This document shows, piece after piece, positions 37,684 to 49,483 of a stretch of DNA of 64,000 nucleotides (positions are counted from its first letter, which is position 1; each line of letters opens with the position of its first letter). The position numbers and the translations under genes were made by a program. Source of the stretch: Escherichia phage vB_EcoM-Pr121LW; the sequence record MH752840.1; one strand, 5' to 3'. Under the pieces are notes generated by a model, which saw only the letters and a program-made list of their open reading frames with translations, had not been told where the DNA came from and searched no databases.

Positions 37684-38448
37684 TTGAAATTTATCTACAA
37701 AGAACACTACCACAAAGGTGTTGTGTGGAGTCTATTTGACGGGTCTGGTGGTGCAGTCATTGACTGGGCAAAAGCTGGGTACCTGTGCCTGTGCTTTAAT
37801 GCAGAAGGTGCTGATCACGGCAGTTATGCAGAGGTGATAACCGATCATCCCAACATTCACTATGTGGATTATTGGATTGACCCATGGTTCCCTCAGGAAA
37901 CTTTTTGCATGTACCCAGCTCCAGACTTTATTCTTGCATTTCCTCCGTGCACGCATTTAGCGGTATCAGGTGCTGCACATTTTAAGAAAAAGCTGGCTAA
38001 GGACCCTATGATCCAAATTAATGCTGTAAAGGATGCTCGGGTTGCGGAAGAGCTGGGAGAGATTTACGATTGCCCGTGGCATGTAGAGAATCCTGTAGGT
38101 GTTATGTCCACACTGTGGCGCAAACCTGATTACCGTTTTCATCCTTCTGACTATGGCGGGTATTTACCGGAGGATGATGTAAACCCTTGGTTTCCTGAAT
38201 TTATAGCTCCACGCGATGCCTATCCAAAAATAACTTGCGGCTGGATAGGTAATGGATTTATAATCCCGGCCACAAAACCTGTCCCGCAAATAGTTGACGC
38301 GGTTAGCGGGTATTCCATGCAACACGCTAAGCTAGGTGGAAAAAGTGCAAGGACGAAGATGATTCGAAGCCTCACACCCCGTGGCTGGGCAAAAGCCGTA
38401 TTCTTAGCAAACGAGCCTGTAGTAAGGAGCAGAATTAATGGGAAGTAA
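37684..38448 (+). CDS. C5-cytosine DNA methyltransferase-like protein (non-canonical)
   Basis: ORF track 37654 (GTG inside terminator); TTG 37684 preferred, AGGAG SD 8 nt upstream; motif I SLFDGSGG, motif IV-like FPPCTH, motif VI-like HVENPVG with canonical spacing; PCT replaces PCQ. Confidence 0.5.
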   Translation: MKFIYKEHYHKGVVWSLFDGSGGAVIDWAKAGYLCLCFNAEGADHGSYAEVITDHPNIHYVDYWIDPWFPQETFCMYPAPDFILAFPPCTHLAVSGAAHFKKKLAKDPMIQINAVKDARVAEELGEIYDCPWHVENPVGVMSTLWRKPDYRFHPSDYGGYLPEDDVNPWFPEFIAPRDAYPKITCGWIGNGFIIPATKPVPQIVDAVSGYSMQHAKLGGKSARTKMIRSLTPRGWAKAVFLANEPVVRSRINGK

Positions 38449-40516
38449 ATTTATGGCATCTGCATATAACCGTTTCGGTGAGCCAAACCCGAAAGCAACT
38501 AAGTATAAAAGTGGGGGAAGTGTGAAACGAGACTATCGTGATGAAAAAGAAGTTGAAACTGTAGAGACTGTTTTAGAAAATACTAAAATCGTCCCTGTCC
38601 CACAACAAAATATTGGTCTGATGGCTGCACAATATTTTGGTGTGCGATCAGCATTGTCCCAAGAAGACGGTGTGACAGTTACTGCAACATATTTCCCATA
38701 TTACGACCGCTACGGGAATCTGTCCGGTTTCAAAAAGCGTGACTGGACGATCCCCAAAGAGCAACGTGGGCACTTTACGACGGTTGGGATCGTAAAGGCT
38801 AACTCCCAGATGTTTGGGCAAAAGCTGTGTGCATCTTCTAACAACCGTAAGCAGATTAACGTTTGTGAGGGGGAAGGCGATGTTATTGCAGCATGGCAGG
38901 CTGCATATCAGATACAAGTAAAAGGGATTCTCACCAACGCTAAAGCCCCGGCAAAGGTGAAACAGTGGGCTAAAGAGGTCCAGGACGGGATCGATGCAGT
39001 TATCAACGGGGGTGATCTGGCAGGAAAACCCTGCCTACCTTTTGTTGGAATTAACTGTGGATGTGCAAACGCAGTAGATACTTTTGCAAACAATGAGAAA
39101 TTTATCCGTAGCTACGGAACAGTGGTCCTTGCAATGGACAACGATGCAGCTAACGAGGTAGAGAAGCAAAAACACGTTATCAAAGGTGTTGAAGCCACAC
39201 ATAATATCGCGGCATTTTTGATGGCTGATAACGTTTACCACGTGGAATACCCCAGCGAGGTAAACGATCCTGACGGTGTAAAAGATATCCGTGACATGCT
39301 GAAGGCTAAAAAGCTGGAAGATATTGTCAACATGTTCCGTCACCCAGTCAAATATGTGCCCGATGCTGTATCTGATTTAGAAGACTTCTCCATTGAATCT
39401 CTTCGTAAGAAGACTTCTAATGGCGTAGATATCAGCGCGGAGTTCCCTAAATTACAGAAGATGCTGAAAGGACTCCACAAAGGCACCTTGATGATGCTGA
39501 CAGGCCCATCTGGCGGTGGTAAAACAACTGTAGCCAAGAAACTAGAGCACTGCATTGCAAAATACTTGATGGATCCGACATGCCCTAAAGCCGATGATTA
39601 TGAAGAGGATGATCGCCTGTGTCTGATTCACCTTGAAGAGGACCCTGAGGAAGCAATTAACTCTCTGTACGCCAACCAGTTGGGGTTTGATGTTAAAGAG
39701 TTTGTTGAAGACCCTAGTCAGTTCCTGACTGATCAGGAGCATGCTGAGATTCACCAATCTTGGGCCAAGGCTGGAAAAATCAAAGTGTTCAAGCATTTTG
39801 GGTCTATTCCTGTAGATGAGTTGATCACTAAGCTTAAACAAATGGTGTGTCTGTATCACTGCCGTTACATTGTGCTGGATCACCTGTCCATGGTAATTTC
39901 AGGGCTTAATGTTAAGGATGAGCGCAAAGAACTTGACATGGCTATGACGCAACTAGCCGCGTTCTGTAAGCAGTTTAATGTATTTATCTTGGTGATCGCT
40001 CACCTGAAACGCACAGAGATTGTGCCTCCAAAGGACAAGGATGGGAATCCGTTACCTTTCTGGTATCCTGTACGAAAAGAGAACCTTCGGGGTAGTGCCG
40101 GATTGGAGCAACTTAGCTGGGTAGTTGTTGGGGTGGAGGCAGAAGAGATGGTGGATCGTTCCCGTGGACGTGTCCGACTGGTAGGTCTTAAAAACCGCCC
40201 AGCAAAAACGTTAGGCATTGCGGATACCTTAGTTATGGATCCCCACACAGGTAAGTTCCATGATGCCAGCAACTGGTACTGGGACAAAGAAATGCAGATG
40301 TTCACAGACGGCGAAGGTGGGGAAGTTGTTTGGAGACCTCAAGCTATGTTTGAGGATCAAGAGCACGCAGTTGTAGAAACACCTGTAGGTAGGGTTGTGG
40401 CTGATAAGGTTGTAACTCCTACTGTTAACCCTGTTGACACACAGGAAGACCTTCCGTATGATGATCCGTCCTCTGACCCTGTTCCTGGCTTTGAAGACGA
40501 TGAAACACCTTTTTAA
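38438..40516 (+). CDS. DNA primase-helicase (Toprim primase fused to DnaB-like helicase)
   Basis: 692 aa; Walker A LTGPSGGGKTT in C-terminal half; T7 gp4-like architecture. Confidence 0.85.
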   Translation: MGSKFMASAYNRFGEPNPKATKYKSGGSVKRDYRDEKEVETVETVLENTKIVPVPQQNIGLMAAQYFGVRSALSQEDGVTVTATYFPYYDRYGNLSGFKKRDWTIPKEQRGHFTTVGIVKANSQMFGQKLCASSNNRKQINVCEGEGDVIAAWQAAYQIQVKGILTNAKAPAKVKQWAKEVQDGIDAVINGGDLAGKPCLPFVGINCGCANAVDTFANNEKFIRSYGTVVLAMDNDAANEVEKQKHVIKGVEATHNIAAFLMADNVYHVEYPSEVNDPDGVKDIRDMLKAKKLEDIVNMFRHPVKYVPDAVSDLEDFSIESLRKKTSNGVDISAEFPKLQKMLKGLHKGTLMMLTGPSGGGKTTVAKKLEHCIAKYLMDPTCPKADDYEEDDRLCLIHLEEDPEEAINSLYANQLGFDVKEFVEDPSQFLTDQEHAEIHQSWAKAGKIKVFKHFGSIPVDELITKLKQMVCLYHCRYIVLDHLSMVISGLNVKDERKELDMAMTQLAAFCKQFNVFILVIAHLKRTEIVPPKDKDGNPLPFWYPVRKENLRGSAGLEQLSWVVVGVEAEEMVDRSRGRVRLVGLKNRPAKTLGIADTLVMDPHTGKFHDASNWYWDKEMQMFTDGEGGEVVWRPQAMFEDQEHAVVETPVGRVVADKVVTPTVNPVDTQEDLPYDDPSSDPVPGFEDDETPF

Positions 40517-40574: not shown

Positions 40575-43352
40575 ATGAGTATGTATAGCTTCGATTTTGA
40601 GGCCTCTGGGCTTTTGGAAGATCCAGACCTTTATTATCACTGCGGCCTGTTTAAAGCGTTGAATAAGAACCGTTTTATGCTGTTCCTTCCTCTGAATGAC
40701 CGCACACACTACTCCGAGGAGGATATAGAGAAGGCTAAGAACTTTATTCTGGCAAAGAAAACTCTTTATAAGGATTTTGAAGTTCGCATAGCAGATTTTT
40801 CGGAGTTGGAAGGTTGGCTTACAGGAAATTCTGACTGGTCACCAACAGCTTTGAACTGCCATAACTGCTACAGTTATGACTTTATGCTGATGGAGAGATT
40901 GTCCGGTATTCATTTTGATATGTTCCGTGACCCTAAGTGTATGGGGACTATCAACGACCACCAGGTTAATCTGTTTGATACGTTGGCGATGAGCCGAATC
41001 TTGTGGCCTGATCGCCCTTTACCAAAAGGTTGTCCGGACTCTGTATTCAACCCGGTTACTAAGAAAATGCAGCCTGTTGGTCCTCACGGACTTATGGCAT
41101 GGGGCTACGCCCTTGGTAACCAGAAAGTTCAAATTGATGACTGGCGCGATCTTCCGTTGTGGAAGTATGTGGATCGTGTATTCGAGGACGTTATCATCCA
41201 GGAGCTGCTCTGGAAAGAGCTGGTAGCGGAATCAAAAGGTGTATTCTACGGCAAATCTGACATGCAGAACTTTATGTACGATCCTGCCAAAGAGAAGCCG
41301 AAAGGGTTCAAGAAGATCACCTGGAAGAACGCATTACGCCGAGGCATGCTGCAGCACTTCCTGATGGAACTGCAGGCCCGTCAGGGTGTGTATTTTGACA
41401 TAGATGGAGCTATTGCTTTACGTGACCGTTGCGATGCGTGGATGAAAGAAATCGCTGATCGTGTTGAACCTCAACTTCCTTTAAAAGAGTTATCAATATC
41501 TCAGCGGCCCAAGTTCCCTGAAAAGCCGTTTAACCAAGACGGGACAATCTCTAATAATGGTTGGAAATGGTTAAAAGATAAGCTTGGCTATCCTGTAGAC
41601 ATGAGCGCTTTAGATTTCAAATCCCCGCCTAAGCGAGCATTTACCTCTACAGGAGATGTCAGCAAGATGGGGATAAAATGGTGTGAAGAGATGGGCTGCA
41701 AAGACCCCGATAAGATGGCTGATTTCTTGAGAGGCTATATTAAGGGCACTTCCACACCTCACCCTTTGCCTAAAGAGCTGATGGATCAGGCAATAAGTGA
41801 TCTACAGCAGAAGCGAATGCCGGACTGCAAGATACCTATGAAAATCAGCAATCAGGACGACATTAAGCGGTATCTGATCAGTGCTGGCTGGCTACCGACA
41901 ATGTGGAGAACTAAGGATGTAACTAAAGATAGCAAGAAGAAAGCTCTACCTGATGCGGATGTTGATGCACGAGTATATGCATATATGGACGAGCTTTTAG
42001 AGTCAGAGTATTGTGACCTGATTATCAACTTCTGGAACAAAACTGATGCCAAGTTCCAGACAACTGTGCACAAGTTCCGAAGCTTTCCTAACTCTGAAAG
42101 GATTAAAAAGGAAGTATTCGGGAAAATACGTAGAAAAGCCAGAGCACTTATTACTTCTCCGCAACTGAAAGATACGTTTGGACACCTGTGTCCGAATCTT
42201 GAAAAATTGAACGGAGAGATGGCTAAAGATATCGTCTTGTGGTTATCATTGCGAAACCGCAGATCAGTCCTTGACCCAATCAAGGAGGATAAGGTTGATA
42301 CTGGTCTTCTTAATCACCCACGTTTGAAGATTGACCATAAGCTTCCTGCTAAAAGCTCTGGATTAACAAACACTTCCAGACAGAAACACAGTATTTGTGC
42401 AAACATGCCTAAACCATCCCCCAAAGTGGTTATGGGTAAAGAGATGCGCAGTCTGTGGGGTGTTCCTCCTGGATACTTTCAGATCGGTATTGACGGGTCC
42501 AACTTAGAGCAGCTTATCGGGGCTTGGGGTGCCTTTGAGTTCGACAACGGCTTGTATTATGATGTTGTAAGTAACGGGGACGCACACCAAAACAATGCTG
42601 AGGCATATACAAAAGTAGCAGGCAGAGAGGTGTCTCGTAACGACGGTAAACCTATCACGTATGGGGTTATGTACGGGGCACAAAAAGATAAAGTTGCAGA
42701 TATGCTGGACATCTCTCCAGAGTTGGGACAAAGGGTAATCGATGCACTCTGGGATGCCAACCCTGGTCTCAAGGGGCGCAAAGAGGATCTGGAGAAATTC
42801 TGGGAAGCAACTGGTAAGAAGTTTATCTACTCTTTTGATGGTCATGCTATCTGGACCAGATCTAAACACTCTTTACTTAATGCATACCAACAGAATGGTG
42901 GTGCATCGCTGTGTGACTTAGTTGGGATACTTATGCACCACCAGATGGTGAAGCGTGGGTGGTACGATGAAGGTGTTCGTCGTATTATCTATTACCATGA
43001 TGAGTACCAACTTCAGGTCCCTGACACTCCTAAGTATAAGACTGTGTACACCTTCGACACAATTGAAGAACTGGAAGCATTTAAGGCAGAGCAGGAGGCC
43101 AAACTTCATGTGTTCGACGGTCATAAGTACAAAAAGGCACGCAAGGATGAGGACGGAAACGAAGTGGTTGACAGAGACGGAAACACGGTGTACGATCCTA
43201 TCCTGAACGATGACGGAAAGCTTGAACTTATCTGGAGCCCTGTGGGTGAAATGGTGGTGCATTGCTTCTGGCAAGCTTCTAAAATGATGGGAGTCCCGTT
43301 CCAGATCACAGGTGAATACTTGTGTGGTCGTAACTGGGGTGATTGTCACTAA
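40575..43352 (+). CDS. family A DNA polymerase with 3'-5' exonuclease domain
   Basis: 925 aa; Exo I FDFEASGL; motif A-like IGIDGSNLEQ; motif B K…YGVMYGAQ; motif C YYHDEYQ. Confidence 0.9.
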   Translation: MSMYSFDFEASGLLEDPDLYYHCGLFKALNKNRFMLFLPLNDRTHYSEEDIEKAKNFILAKKTLYKDFEVRIADFSELEGWLTGNSDWSPTALNCHNCYSYDFMLMERLSGIHFDMFRDPKCMGTINDHQVNLFDTLAMSRILWPDRPLPKGCPDSVFNPVTKKMQPVGPHGLMAWGYALGNQKVQIDDWRDLPLWKYVDRVFEDVIIQELLWKELVAESKGVFYGKSDMQNFMYDPAKEKPKGFKKITWKNALRRGMLQHFLMELQARQGVYFDIDGAIALRDRCDAWMKEIADRVEPQLPLKELSISQRPKFPEKPFNQDGTISNNGWKWLKDKLGYPVDMSALDFKSPPKRAFTSTGDVSKMGIKWCEEMGCKDPDKMADFLRGYIKGTSTPHPLPKELMDQAISDLQQKRMPDCKIPMKISNQDDIKRYLISAGWLPTMWRTKDVTKDSKKKALPDADVDARVYAYMDELLESEYCDLIINFWNKTDAKFQTTVHKFRSFPNSERIKKEVFGKIRRKARALITSPQLKDTFGHLCPNLEKLNGEMAKDIVLWLSLRNRRSVLDPIKEDKVDTGLLNHPRLKIDHKLPAKSSGLTNTSRQKHSICANMPKPSPKVVMGKEMRSLWGVPPGYFQIGIDGSNLEQLIGAWGAFEFDNGLYYDVVSNGDAHQNNAEAYTKVAGREVSRNDGKPITYGVMYGAQKDKVADMLDISPELGQRVIDALWDANPGLKGRKEDLEKFWEATGKKFIYSFDGHAIWTRSKHSLLNAYQQNGGASLCDLVGILMHHQMVKRGWYDEGVRRIIYYHDEYQLQVPDTPKYKTVYTFDTIEELEAFKAEQEAKLHVFDGHKYKKARKDEDGNEVVDRDGNTVYDPILNDDGKLELIWSPVGEMVVHCFWQASKMMGVPFQITGEYLCGRNWGDCH

Positions 43353-43401: not shown

Positions 43402-43686
43402 ATGGTAGTAGAACCAACAAAAACATTTACATCCATGACTATTCCTGTTATTATGCAGGTGGAGTGTGTTCAGGTATCTCAAGTGTGGCCTGGCACCAAA
43501 ATCCCAACAGGGCCTGATTTCTTTCAGGTTGGGAAAGTGTACAATGTCTGGAAGGCACCAGATTGTTACCCTTTCATTAAAGATGACCGTGGGATGCTGT
43601 GGTACCTTGGAAATGACTTGACACTGCACCTTGGGAATACTATTATTGCAGTATTCAGACTTAACAAGAAGGAGACCGATCAATGA
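43402..43686 (+). CDS. small protein, paralogue family member 1
   Basis: ORF track 43312 overlaps pol; ATG 43402 with AGAGGA SD; motif IKDDRGMLWY. Confidence 0.5.
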   Translation: MVVEPTKTFTSMTIPVIMQVECVQVSQVWPGTKIPTGPDFFQVGKVYNVWKAPDCYPFIKDDRGMLWYLGNDLTLHLGNTIIAVFRLNKKETDQ

Positions 43687-44817: not shown

Positions 44818-44846
44818 TTGACAACAGTGATAGGGCCTAATATAAT
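44818..44846 (+). promoter_or_regulatory. sigma70 promoter TTGACA-17-TATAAT with -10 inside a 9-bp-arm palindrome
   Basis: -35 at 44818-44823, -10 at 44841-44846; palindrome GATAGGGCC-N9-GGCCCTATC at 44829-44855. Confidence 0.65.
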
Positions 44847-46177: not shown

Positions 46178-46543
46178 ATGGAACAAATGAACGATCAAGA
46201 GTCGGTTGCGATGAACGAGCAAGAACAACCTCAAGAATTTTTCTTAGGGTTAAGTAAAGATCAAGTGTCTCTTTTGCTAGTGCTTTCTTCTTTCATGGGA
46301 AGACTTCAGGAGCTCACACAACAACCGGAGGCTGAACAATTATTTCAGGCTCTGCGTGAAGAAGAAAAATATCGTCGTTTGGACTATGCCTTAGGTTGGG
46401 TAGCTCAACAACGAGATATGCTAATGGCCCTCTCTGGGACCACAAGTTTTGCAATGGGCCTATTGGCTCAAGTTCAGGACAAATTAATTCAAGCAGGGTT
46501 TGCACACACGGCAAACACTAACGAAGAACAAGGAGACAAATAA
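46178..46543 (+). CDS. hypothetical protein
   Basis: 121 aa; Gln/Glu-rich. Confidence 0.5.
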   Translation: MEQMNDQESVAMNEQEQPQEFFLGLSKDQVSLLLVLSSFMGRLQELTQQPEAEQLFQALREEEKYRRLDYALGWVAQQRDMLMALSGTTSFAMGLLAQVQDKLIQAGFAHTANTNEEQGDK

Positions 46544-47769
46544 TGAGCGTTATTCAACAATTTGCTAACCCGATGAATCCGCGTGAAACTGTTTTACTGG
46601 CTCACGGTATGATCAAGCGTGTTAGCATCAAACCTATTAAAGGAGCTGATCCTGCAACAGGTATTAAAACCACCGTGTGGCAAGGTAAGAAAATTGAATC
46701 CAGCCACACCATCTCTTTACTGATTTCTGAACTGGATTCCTCTGATAACCTACTTCAAGGCGGTGAAGAAGTCTGGATCAGCATGGGTGATAAGCTGCTT
46801 AAACCTGGCCATCAAGACTCTGTCTCTGTTAAGATTGATGACAAGTGGGAAACCGTAACGCCAGGATGGATCGTAAATATTCCTTTGAAGGCAAACGAGC
46901 ATAACGGTAAGACCTATTACAAAGGCTCACTGGCTAAGATGGTCAAGCTGGGTGCAGGAGAGGCTCCAGCAGCGACTCAGCAGCAAAAACAGCAACAAGG
47001 TGCACAATCACAAGGCCAGAAGCAGAAACCTCAGCAGAATGCCAATCAGGACGTTTTACGCATCTATGGCGATGTGACTCAGATTGTTGGCAACGTGGTT
47101 ACTGTTAATGACCACAAGATCGGCGAAGGTGCTATGGTTGTCACGGATGAGCAGCTTAAAGACCTGGTGGTAGGTGGTCGTGTTGCAGCCATTGTTGACA
47201 AAGACACCGGAAACATTATCAGTGGTTTCAAAGCCTATCCACCTAAGGCAGAGAACGGCACCCAAGGTTCTGGTGGCAAGCGTAAATCCTCTTACGACCC
47301 TATTGGTGTGGAGACTGGGCATAGCATCAATGCGTTGCAAATCATCCTGGATCGCGGGTTTAAGGTAGACGACCCACTAGGTGTGGCTAAAGCACTGCAC
47401 GTAGTCACCATTGAGCTTAAGAAAGAGTATGCTCAAGCCACCAACCGAACTGAAGATGAAGTAGGTGCCAGTGTCGGTAATGCGGTGTTGAACGCTTGTC
47501 GCCGTATTGACAAGAAAACGAAAGTTGATGATTTTGCAGCGGCAATTACTGCAGAAGCAAAAGATGTGTTGACTAATCTGGCTGAGCCGTTGTACGATTG
47601 GATCAAGAACGGTGCTGGGTCAACTGACCATCAAGAACCTCAGGCTGCCAAACAGGAAGCAGCTCCACAGCAAAACACTGTAGACGCTCCTCCTGTAAAT
47701 GATGGGGAAGACGACCCGATGGATCAGAATCCAGCACAGTACGCCTTTGATGATGACATCCCCTTCTAA
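46543..47769 (+). CDS. ssDNA-binding protein-like, C-terminus DDDIPF
   Basis: 408 aa; Gln-rich linker; acidic C-terminal tail ending FDDDIPF as in bacterial SSB; replication-module context. Confidence 0.5.
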   Translation: MSVIQQFANPMNPRETVLLAHGMIKRVSIKPIKGADPATGIKTTVWQGKKIESSHTISLLISELDSSDNLLQGGEEVWISMGDKLLKPGHQDSVSVKIDDKWETVTPGWIVNIPLKANEHNGKTYYKGSLAKMVKLGAGEAPAATQQQKQQQGAQSQGQKQKPQQNANQDVLRIYGDVTQIVGNVVTVNDHKIGEGAMVVTDEQLKDLVVGGRVAAIVDKDTGNIISGFKAYPPKAENGTQGSGGKRKSSYDPIGVETGHSINALQIILDRGFKVDDPLGVAKALHVVTIELKKEYAQATNRTEDEVGASVGNAVLNACRRIDKKTKVDDFAAAITAEAKDVLTNLAEPLYDWIKNGAGSTDHQEPQAAKQEAAPQQNTVDAPPVNDGEDDPMDQNPAQYAFDDDIPF

Positions 47770-47784
47770 CATCTAGTTAACATA

Positions 47785-47814
47785 GCCCTGCCCGAAAGGG
47801 TGGGGCATTTTTGT
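47785..47814 (+). terminator. rho-independent terminator GCCCTGCCC-GAAA-GGGTGGGGC plus T-run
   Basis: Second copy of the 37639 terminator hairpin, followed by ATTTTTGT. Confidence 0.7.
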
Positions 47815-47831
47815 ATAAGGAGATCTGAAAA

Positions 47832-48609: not shown

Positions 48610-49035
48610 ATGATCTATGAAATGCCAAAACTGATTCATGACGATGCCCAAAACGCTCACACCATTATTATGGGTAAGCGCATGGATATTATTTGTCATA
48701 AAGATTTCTGGGAAGGGAGTTACTTCACGGAATATTTTGGTAAACTGGATAATGGTCTGCTGATCCAGTTCTACACCGATGCGGAAAACAATATCTGCTG
48801 GGAGTTCGAAACTGAAGATATCCATAAACTTTTCACCTTCCTAGGTATTAAGGTTGAGGCCAAGTTCGAAGAAGGTGAGTGCGACGATTGTGGATTCTAC
48901 GAGGTAACAGATTTCTATCTCCCAAGTGGTGAGAACCTTTACTATGAAAGCCACTTCGGCAACTCAAATATGCCACAAGGTTGGGATGAGTTTTTTGAAA
49001 TTGTGGAAGAGGAGCTGGCATACCGTGATTATTGA
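48610..49035 (+). CDS. hypothetical protein
   Basis: 141 aa. Confidence 0.5.
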   Translation: MIYEMPKLIHDDAQNAHTIIMGKRMDIICHKDFWEGSYFTEYFGKLDNGLLIQFYTDAENNICWEFETEDIHKLFTFLGIKVEAKFEEGECDDCGFYEVTDFYLPSGENLYYESHFGNSNMPQGWDEFFEIVEEELAYRDY

Positions 49036-49483
49036 TACTGTAGAGGGAGATTTAATCTCCCTTTTTAAGAGCGGCGCTGGTCACCTGATCCACGGTTGTA
49101 ACTGCTTCCACACAATGGGCAAGGGGATAGCAAAACAGATTGCCCGTGAGTTCCCTCAAGCATTGGCAGCTGACAAAGAGACCAGACATGGTTGCCTAAG
49201 TAAACTGGGTGCGTTCTCCCGATGGGAGCACTTATCTCCGAGAGGTATTGTCTACGGAATCAATCTGTATACTCAGTTCTACCCAGGACCTAATGCTGAA
49301 TATTTCTCAATCCTGAAAGGCTTTGAGCTAGTCAATGAGGTATTCAGTGGATCGACTTTACCATTCTACATCCCTAAGATCGGGTGCGGCATAGGCGGTT
49401 TGAAGTGGGAGCACGTAGAGGACGTTATTAACCTTGCCACTTTTGATATGAATATTATCGTGGTGGAGTACAAAAAGTGTTGA
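49025..49483 (+). CDS. macro-domain protein (ADP-ribose binding/processing)
   Basis: ORF track 48926 overlaps upstream gene; GTG 49025 preferred; motifs HGCNCFHTMGKGIAKQIAREFP and PKIGCGIGGL. Confidence 0.65.
   Translation: MIIDTVEGDLISLFKSGAGHLIHGCNCFHTMGKGIAKQIAREFPQALAADKETRHGCLSKLGAFSRWEHLSPRGIVYGINLYTQFYPGPNAEYFSILKGFELVNEVFSGSTLPFYIPKIGCGIGGLKWEHVEDVINLATFDMNIIVVEYKKC

What the first reader, a model, noticed from the sequence alone, without database searches (positions are those of the whole stretch)
46543..47769. Large SSB-like protein ending in the host-SSB tip DDDIPF
The 408-aa product of the replication module has a Gln-rich flexible linker and terminates …YAFDDDIPF, the same acidic tip bacterial SSB uses to recruit partner proteins. 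A phage protein carrying this tip could bind ssDNA while recruiting, or competing for, host SSB-interacting enzymes.
Basis: partly seen in the sequence, partly recalled or inferred. Interest (0 to 1): 0.45.

Follow-up and report, generated by a model that had tools for sequence, protein, structure and literature searches.

The report
Vequintavirus SSB-like protein with host tip
This rV5-like phage gene encodes a two-OB-fold, SSB-like protein ending in the same DDDIPF peptide as E. coli SSB; the reading is right, but a 2026 preprint already described it for a 99%-identical ortholog that triggers the DRT10 defence system.

Summary
Window 46543..47769 (+) encodes a 408-aa protein with a Gln-rich disordered linker that ends in ...YAFDDDIPF.

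- an SSB/PriB-like OB fold (aa 1-139);
- a second compact OB fold (170-236);
- a four-helix bundle (253-355);
- an acidic disordered tail carrying the tip.

About 90% of full-length family representatives end in an acidic ...PF/F tip. No other SSB is detectable in the rV5 genome. The gene lies in a T7-like replisome module, and the primase/helicase there also ends in an acidic ...EDDETPF tail.

The SSB-like reading is supported but not new. bioRxiv 10.64898/2026.04.29.721553 describes Bas52_0087 (403/408 identical) with the same architecture and C-tip. That work shows genetically that it is required to trigger the DRT10 defence, with ExoI (SbcB) as a modulator. Biochemical proof of ssDNA binding or tip-partner binding is still missing.

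A side finding appears undescribed. In 52 of 115 vequintavirus records, and on many unrelated phage SSBs, the tip is capped by a conserved 14-15-aa extension (APIGLQY...). In some cases an overlapping HNH endonuclease gene accompanies it.

The parts
46543..47769 (+). CDS of the 408-aa SSB-like protein (stop codon included); PHROG 4477; ortholog of rV5 ORF214 and Bas52_0087
46530..46535 (+). Shine-Dalgarno AAGGAG, 7 nt before the ATG; the upstream ORF's TAA overlaps the ATG (TAATG), which suggests translational coupling
46543..46959 (+). OB fold 1 (aa 1-139), SSB/PriB-like by fold; nearly invariant H55, G82, G108, E119, K123, Y126
46960..47049 (+). Gln-rich disordered linker (aa 140-169; 13 Q of 30)
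   Evidence: pLDDT 25-33; composition
47050..47250 (+). OB fold 2 (aa 170-236): compact beta1-beta2-beta3-helix-beta4-beta5 barrel; absent from the short-form relatives (phi92 gp156, KP2025)
47251..47298 (+). Gly/Lys-rich linker (aa 237-252) ending at D252, the nearly invariant residue mutated (D252V) in a DRT10 escape phage
47299..47607 (+). Four-helix bundle (aa 253-355), the most conserved part (G255, G259, H260, N263, G312, L316, N317-R320). It contains Y351 (escape mutation Y351C). Putative oligomerisation domain
47608..47748 (+). Acidic, Pro/Gln-rich disordered tail (aa 356-402)
   Evidence: pLDDT below 40; composition
47749..47766 (+). C-terminal tip DDDIPF (aa 403-408), identical to the E. 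coli SSB tip; uncapped in this window
47785..47816 (+). Intrinsic-terminator-like hairpin (9 pairs, 7 GC) with a T-run, 16 nt after the stop. In rV5 the cap+HNH cassette sits between the IPF codon and this conserved terminator region
46178..46543 (+). Upstream 121-aa ORF (PHROG 7310, unknown function), translationally coupled. A similar-sized ORF sits directly upstream of the homolog in every clade examined (rV5 ORF215, KpS11_040, phi92 gp157), but its homology was not tested. Possible partner
38438..40516 (+). gp4-like DNA primase/helicase whose C-terminus is also acidic and ends ...GFEDDETPF (tail codons 40493-40513)
40575..43352 (+). Family-A (T7-like) DNA polymerase, the candidate docking partner for both acidic tails
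   Evidence: rV5 annotation

Best explanation
This is the phage's own single-stranded-DNA-binding protein, from a family with no sequence similarity to canonical SSBs. Inferred: two OB folds in one chain bind ssDNA at the phage replication fork, and the conserved four-helix bundle mediates self-association. Inferred: the long acidic disordered tail presents a DDDIPF-COOH tip that acts as a protein-recruitment handle. Because the tip is identical to the host SSB tip, it most likely docks on host SSB-interactome enzymes. ExoI/SbcB is the one with genetic support. Docking would recruit these enzymes to phage ssDNA or titrate them away from host SSB. Inferred, by analogy with T7 gp2.5 and gp4: the same tail probably also contacts the phage's family-A DNA polymerase. 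Shown here: the sequence features, their conservation, the predicted folds and the absence of any other detectable SSB. Shown in the preprint: a genetic requirement for DRT10 activation, and loss of that activity in the D252V and Y351C mutants of the helical bundle.
Confidence: 0.7

Rival explanations
1. T7-style internal wiring. The acidic Phe-ended tail serves mainly to dock on the phage's own family-A DNA polymerase or primase-helicase, as gp2.5 and gp4 tails do in T7. Its identity to the host tip is then a by-product of tail shuffling between ssb-like genes rather than host mimicry. This is compatible with the protein being the replicative SSB; it disputes only the partner.
For: The primase/helicase of the same phage ends ...EDDETPF, a near copy of the DDDIPF logic. 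The replisome is T7-like. T7 precedent: PMC12339929. Tails look modular and exchangeable: the same cap follows the tip in three unrelated protein families, sometimes with a homing endonuclease gene.
Against: The tip is exactly the enterobacterial SSB tip, and many relatives end in PPMDFDDDIPF, which from my own recollection matches the end of E. coli SSB. That is more than T7-type acidity plus a terminal Phe requires. The genetics link the protein to the ExoI-modulated DRT10 pathway.
Confidence: 0.35
2. Decoy or sponge. The protein is not the replicative SSB. It is primarily a competitor that titrates host SSB-binding enzymes (ExoI, RecQ, PriA, chi) away from host SSB, shutting down host DNA metabolism or protecting phage DNA ends.
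For: Exact host tip. The preprint's model has Bas52_0087 competing with or displacing SbcB, and SbcB overexpression attenuates DRT10.
Against: A decoy does not need two conserved OB folds and a conserved bundle. No other SSB is detectable in the genome, although the phage encodes its own replisome. Expression alone is not toxic. The capped alleles are viable and common.
Confidence: 0.15
3. Recombination mediator or annealing protein (RecO-like: OB fold plus helical domain), or a primosome/helicase-loading factor (PriB-like), rather than a general SSB.
Against: The RecO matches score no better than the SSB and RPA OB folds. There is no Zn-finger and no RecO or PriB Pfam signal. RecO and PriB bind the SSB tip rather than carry it, whereas this family carries the tip in about 90% of members.
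Confidence: 0.1
4. The C-terminal similarity is coincidental and the protein has nothing to do with ssDNA.
For: There is no sequence-family support.
Against: Probability about 2e-8 per position, family-wide conservation, two predicted OB folds, and independent genetics.
Confidence: 0.01

Closest known systems
Bas52_0087 (QXV84166.1) of Escherichia phage RudolfGeigy/Bas52, described in bioRxiv 10.64898/2026.04.29.721553
   Same: 403/408 identical. Same predicted architecture: OB-fold-1, OB-fold-2, four-helix bundle, disordered C-terminus, FDDDIPF C-tip. D252 and Y351 are both present in the window protein.
   Different: Five substitutions only.
E. coli-type bacterial SSB (Pfam PF00436)
   Same: OB fold for ssDNA, a disordered linker, an acidic C-terminal tip with identical last six residues (DDDIPF); some relatives share a longer stretch (PPMDFDDDIPF).
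   Different: No detectable sequence homology. Two OB folds per chain instead of one. An extra conserved four-helix bundle. Oligomeric state unknown, whereas canonical SSB tetramerises through the OB domain itself.
Bacteriophage T7 gp2.5 (with gp4 and gp5)
   Same: Phage-encoded SSB working with a family-A polymerase and a gp4-like primase-helicase. Both SSB and helicase carry acidic tails ending in Phe. In T7 these tails dock on a basic patch of the polymerase and the terminal Phe is essential (PMC12339929).
   Different: No sequence similarity. gp2.5 has a single OB fold. The tip here copies the host SSB tip rather than being merely acidic plus Phe.
Multi-OB single-chain SSBs (eukaryotic/archaeal RPA; Thermus/Deinococcus SSB; baculovirus LEF-3)
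   Different: No Zn-finger, no heterotrimer partners identified, and a bacterial-type SSB tip.
Short-form relatives: phi92 gp156 (Stephanstirmvirinae) and the Klebsiella phage KP2025 'SSB'
   Same: Same OB1, four-helix bundle and acidic tail with DDDIPF.
   Different: They lack OB2 (about 275-315 aa). phi92 gp156 carries the 15-aa cap.
HK620 SSB and Sak4 (PMC5928155)
   Same: A phage SSB whose last six residues (NDYPPF) recruit a partner protein to SSB-coated ssDNA.
   Different: HK620 SSB is a distant canonical SSB, and its partner is a phage annealase. No annealase was identified next to the window gene.

Membership tests
Bacterial/phage canonical SSB family (Pfam PF00436) | Significant match to the SSB sequence profile | tested here: not met
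   No Pfam hit for the window protein or any of 31 family members. HHalign of the OB1 alignment against a canonical phage-SSB OB alignment gives probability 0.3%. tblastn with E. coli SSB hits only the tail.
Bacterial/phage canonical SSB family (Pfam PF00436) | OB fold of the nucleic-acid-binding superfamily | tested here: met
Bacterial/phage canonical SSB family (Pfam PF00436) | Disordered linker followed by an acidic C-terminal tip ending ...D-D-D-I-P-F-COOH | tested here: met
Bacterial/phage canonical SSB family (Pfam PF00436) | Sequence-independent, high-affinity ssDNA binding; homotetramer | not testable with these tools
   Needs purified protein (EMSA, SEC-MALS). No multimer prediction was available.
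SSB-Ct interactome hub (tip binds ExoI, chi, PriA, RecQ and others) | Free alpha-carboxylate of the terminal Phe after an acidic stretch | tested here: met
   The window allele ends ...FDDDIPF*. This is not so in the capped alleles of rV5 and 51 other records.
SSB-Ct interactome hub (tip binds ExoI, chi, PriA, RecQ and others) | Physical binding of the tip to host partners | not testable with these tools
   Only indirect genetics exist: SbcB dosage modulates the DRT10 response that depends on the ortholog.
T7 gp2.5-type phage SSB | Sequence or Pfam similarity to gp2.5 / DUF2815 | tested here: not met
No Pfam hit. Only a weak Foldseek hit to a DUF2815 protein, E 8e-3.
T7 gp2.5-type phage SSB | Acidic Phe-terminated tail, working with a family-A polymerase and a gp4-like helicase that has a similar tail | tested here: met
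   Context only. Actual tail-polymerase binding was not tested.
PHROG 4477 (unknown function) | Full-length match to the family profile | tested here: met
   E 1.3e-172, residues 1-408 against profile 1-393 of 393.
DRT10 trigger protein (Bas52_0087 orthologs) | Orthology to Bas52_0087, with D252 and Y351 conserved | tested here: met
   403/408 identity; D252 and Y351 present. Syntenic position.
RecO-like recombination mediators | RecO profile match; OB plus helical plus Zn-binding domains | tested here: not met

The most novel reading that the evidence does not exclude
The SSB tip itself is a mobile, switchable module. A conserved 14-15-residue cap (APIGLQY-P-x-[LI]-L-x-C-[MI]* or APIGLQY-G-[KR]-x-x-I-[YH]-x-[IL]*) is added directly after ...D-D-D-[IT]-P-F. 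It appears in three unrelated phage protein families: canonical SSB, this family, and a gp4-like primase/helicase. Sometimes an overlapping Zn-finger HNH endonuclease gene comes with it, with its ATG inside the cap codons. The most novel reading is that the DNA encoding the tip and stop codon is a homing or insertion site. On this reading, capping converts a host-interactome-competent SSB tip into one that no longer engages ExoI, chi or PriA. That would alter partner choice or let the phage escape defences that sense the phage-SSB/ExoI axis, such as DRT10. The window carries the uncapped state of this polymorphism.
Probability: 0.25. Interest if true: 0.7.

Novelty: already known. Interest (0 to 1): 0.3.

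Why it matters
The protein fills the 'missing SSB' slot in the rV5-type replisome; the 2013 rV5 genome paper names no SSB. It represents an SSB architecture that sequence-based annotation cannot see, and almost all of the 242 matching phage records call it hypothetical. It is also biologically consequential: its 99%-identical ortholog is the phage factor that sets off the DRT10 reverse-transcriptase defence, in a pathway tuned by host ExoI, a classic binder of the SSB tip. Proper annotation of this family (long forms in Vequintavirinae, short forms in phi92-like Stephanstirmvirinae) would help predict which therapeutic coliphages are sensitive to defences that sense SSB. If the capped-tip polymorphism proves functional, it would be a simple natural switch for testing what the SSB tip does during infection.

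Tried and rejected
1. Sequence-family assignment. Pfam (window protein and all 31 aligned members), PDB sequence search, and HHalign against canonical SSB OB domains all gave nothing.

2. I considered that the rV5 insertion after the IPF codon might be a group I intron whose splicing would restore DDDIPF-stop. I rejected this from sequence features rather than a structural test. The cap occurs alone, without any HNH gene, in many genomes. Its codons outside the search pattern vary in the coding pattern, with 3rd > 1st > 2nd position differences (1689/1188/831), so it is translated.

3. I considered that the cap is merely the out-of-frame 5' edge of the HNH gene. I rejected this as a general explanation: only about 8 of 54 capped tails in IMG/VR have the HNH Zn-finger domain downstream.

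5. The upstream partner ORF has only spurious alpha-repeat matches, no Pfam hit, and a PHROG of unknown function.

6. Per-phage DRT10 sensitivity of capped versus uncapped BASEL vequintaviruses is not available as text.

7. A literature search for the cap motif 'IGLQY' gave zero papers. The Hna paper and the BME3 paper were not informative.

Full report
**1. The observation**

The window has a single ORF at 46543..47769 on the + strand (ATG start, 408 aa). Its product ends ...DQNPAQYAFDDDIPF*. A strong Shine-Dalgarno (AAGGAG, 46530-46535) precedes the ATG by 7 nt. The stop of the upstream 121-aa ORF overlaps the start (TAATG). A 9-bp, GC-rich hairpin with a T-run follows 16 nt after the stop (47785-47806). 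The upstream ORF and this gene therefore look like a translationally coupled pair closed by a terminator.

A separate acidic Pro/Gln-rich tail (residues 356-408; 12 D/E against 1 K/R) carries the tip.

With the window's amino-acid composition, DDDIPF is expected at a given position with probability about 2.4e-8. Chance can be dismissed even before conservation is considered.

**2. Where the window comes from**

The gene is 97-99% identical in DNA to 115 phage records of the genus Vequintavirus (rV5, FFH2, the BASEL phages and others). The protein is 100% identical to that of phiWec193. Nearly every record calls it 'hypothetical protein'. Two distant relatives are auto-annotated as 'ssDNA-binding domain-containing protein' (KpS11) or 'single-stranded DNA-binding protein' (KP2025).

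It is rV5 ORF214. It lies downstream of the primase/helicase (ORF230) and the T7-like DNA polymerase (ORF228) on the same strand. In the window these are 38438..40516 and 40575..43352.

**3. What the protein is**

Sequence methods are blind to it:
- No Pfam hit for the protein or for any of 31 aligned relatives.
- No PDB sequence hit.
- A full-length match only to PHROG 4477, 'unknown function'.

An AlphaFold2 model built on the family alignment (mean pLDDT 73.5; folded parts 80-94) shows the following:
- a beta-domain, aa 1-139;
- a disordered Q-rich linker, 140-169;
- a small beta-domain with the classic beta1-beta2-beta3-helix-beta4-beta5 order, 170-236;
- a short linker;
- a four-helix bundle, 253-355;
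- a disordered tail, 362-408.

Profile-profile comparison of OB1 with canonical phage and E. coli-type SSB OB domains gives no signal (HHalign probability 0.3%). This is an SSB-like fold, not a member of the PF00436 sequence family.

**4. The family**

A word-indexed search found 56 relatives. An exhaustive HMM search of 1.84 billion cluster representatives found 239 clusters at E<=1e-3, of which 164 are at E<=1e-10. They come in two sizes:
- long forms of about 370-420 aa, like the window protein;
- short forms of about 260-315 aa that lack OB2, such as phi92 gp156 and the KP2025 'SSB'.

The helical bundle is the most conserved part (invariant G255, G259, H260, N263, G312, L316). It was not seen in any other architecture.

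Of 131 full-length representatives, 102 end in an acidic-x-PF tip, very often ...MDFDDDIPF. Twelve more end in another acidic tail finishing in Phe. The tip is therefore a defining feature of the family and not an accident of this phage.

**5. Is it the phage's SSB?**

The rV5 genome paper lists ligase, polymerase and two helicases but no SSB (PMC3606486). The full rV5 annotation contains none.

A phage that brings its own primase-helicase and polymerase is expected to bring an SSB, and this is the only candidate. That argument is at sequence level only. A second cryptic OB protein cannot be excluded.

**6. How the tail may work**

Two non-exclusive readings fit.

(a) Host mimicry. The last six residues equal the E. 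coli SSB tip, and several relatives share a longer stretch with it. The tip could therefore engage the host SSB interactome.

(b) T7-style wiring. The window's primase/helicase also ends in an acidic tail with a terminal Pro-Phe (...GFEDDETPF). In T7, the acidic Phe-terminated tails of gp2.5 and gp4 both dock on the polymerase, and the terminal Phe is essential (PMC12339929). The HK620 SSB/Sak4 work shows that a phage SSB tip can recruit a phage partner (PMC5928155).

**7. Prior work**

A bioRxiv preprint of 30 April 2026 (10.64898/2026.04.29.721553) isolated escape mutants of BASEL phage Bas52 on the DRT10 (UG17) reverse-transcriptase defence. Both mutations map to Bas52_0087 (D252V, Y351C).

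[quoted passage not shown] They place both substitutions at a putative oligomerisation interface. They also show that the protein enhances DRT10 restriction during infection but is not sufficient alone, and that SbcB (ExoI) overexpression attenuates defence.

I located Bas52_0087 (QXV84166.1) in phage RudolfGeigy. It is 403/408 identical to the window protein, with D252 and Y351 conserved. In my model these residues sit at the start of helix 1 and near the end of helix 4 of the bundle.

Neither ssDNA binding nor tip-partner binding has been measured. DRT10 protects against Vequintavirinae and Stephanstirmvirinae. I find the long and short forms of this family in those same two groups.

**8. 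An unexpected polymorphism at the tip**

In rV5 itself the protein does not end at IPF. It continues ...CDDIPF-APVGLQYGKSRIHAL*. Relative to the window, rV5 has an insertion that begins exactly after the IPF codon and ends just before the conserved terminator. It contains the 15-codon cap and a 207-aa Zn-finger/HNH-type endonuclease gene (ORF213) whose ATG lies inside the cap codons (CAATATGG).

The cassette is present in 52 of the 115 vequintavirus records. The window has the uncapped allele.

The cap is not restricted to this family:
- tblastn with the capped tail finds it on annotated canonical SSBs of Vibrio, Proteus and lambdoid mEp phages, and on phi92 gp156.
- It also occurs on the primase/helicase of Klebsiella phage P8734 (...DDDTPF-APIGLQYAKHAIYVI*). 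In that genome the SSB-like protein is uncapped, while in the relative KpS11 the SSB-like protein is the capped one.

A degenerate-pattern scan of IMG/VR gave 58 loci, about 54 of them genuine tails. Most are on E. coli-type SSBs. There are two cap classes...GLQYPALL[NM]CM* and ...GLQYG[KR]SRIYAL*. Only about 8 have the HNH Zn-finger domain directly downstream.

In the codons not fixed by the search pattern, pairwise differences by codon position are 1188/831/1689 (1st/2nd/3rd). Hydrophobic and Cys positions are conserved. This indicates a translated peptide under selection.

The same pattern in one genome per bacterial species (596 Gb) gave only about ten real cases, in Vibrio, Providencia, Sodalis, Pseudoalteromonas and similar genera. 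The cap is therefore enriched in phages relative to bacterial genomes. No paper in the library contains the motif.

Canonical partners grip the free carboxylate of the terminal Phe (my own knowledge of the ExoI, RecQ and chi complexes). A cap should therefore change or abolish that docking. This is untested, and it is also evidence that a free tip is not essential for the phage.

**9. Verdict**

The best explanation is that this is the vequintavirus replicative SSB, from a family with no sequence similarity to canonical SSBs: two OB folds, an oligomerising four-helix bundle, and an acidic tail with a host-type tip used to engage ExoI-type host partners and probably the phage polymerase (confidence about 0.7).

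The finding is already known through the 2026 preprint, so the interest of the finding as stated is modest (0.3). The capped-tip/HNH polymorphism is the part that seems new and worth following up.

Noticed in passing
L001:10225-10867 (rV5), corresponding to the junction at window 47766/47767: In rV5 and 51 other vequintavirus records, a cassette is inserted exactly between the IPF codon and the stop. It adds a 15-aa cap (APVGLQYGKSRIHAL) to the SSB tip. It also carries a 207-aa Zn-finger/HNH 'endonuclease VII' gene whose ATG lies inside the cap codons. The window has the empty (uncapped) site, so this is a presence/absence polymorphism among genomes more than 95% identical.
   Followed up: partly
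L018-L075 (IMG/VR), L009, L010, L011, L013, and about 10 of L078-L137: A conserved 14-15-aa extension after ...DDDIPF is widespread on canonical phage SSBs. It has two classes, APIGLQYPALLNCM* and APIGLQYGKSRIYAL*. It also occurs on phi92 gp156 and on a primase/helicase (...DDDTPF+cap). It is mostly found without an HNH gene, it shows coding-type selection, and it is rare in bacterial genomes. No paper in the library mentions the motif. Its function is unknown.
   Followed up: partly
window 40493-40516 (end of primase/helicase ORF 38438..40516): The gp4-like primase/helicase ends in an acidic tail ...DPVPGFEDDETPF*. It resembles the SSB-like protein's tip and recalls the paired acidic Phe-terminated tails of T7 gp4 and gp2.5.
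   Followed up: partly
window 46178-46543 (+): A 121-aa ORF (PHROG 7310, unknown function) is translationally coupled to the SSB-like gene (TAATG overlap). A similar-sized ORF sits directly upstream of the homolog in rV5, KpS11, phi92, KP2025 and the metagenomic relatives, though its homology was not tested. It may be a functional partner. No Pfam or PDB match beyond spurious alpha-repeat hits.
   Followed up: partly
window 40575-43352 versus L001:2776-5198: The window's DNA polymerase ORF is 925 aa (as in JeffSchatz), whereas rV5 annotates a 775-aa polymerase preceded by a tiny ORF. The primase-to-polymerase-end interval is about 350 nt longer in the window. This could be an indel or an annotation difference in the polymerase N-terminal region.
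   Followed up: no
window 48926-49483 (+): A 185-aa ORF with a Macro-domain match (PF01661, E 2.4e-6) and PHROG 335 'phosphatase', homologous to RB49 Tk.4. It is a possible ADP-ribose-processing enzyme two genes downstream of the SSB-like gene.
   Followed up: no
window 44818-44846 (+) and 43618-43646 (+): A perfect (12/12) and a near-perfect (11/12) sigma-70 consensus promoter with 17-nt spacers, within the block of small ORFs between the polymerase and the SSB-like gene. This matches the many early sigma-70 promoters annotated in rV5.
   Followed up: no
L009:1523-2086 (mEp554) versus L001:10244-10867 (rV5): The endonucleases that overlap capped SSB tails share an N-terminal Zn-finger module (M-x-x-[VI]-ESTxCKRCIKCG...DGHxNKCKxC) but have different C-terminal nuclease parts. 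This suggests a common DNA-targeting domain for the tip-coding site.
   Followed up: no
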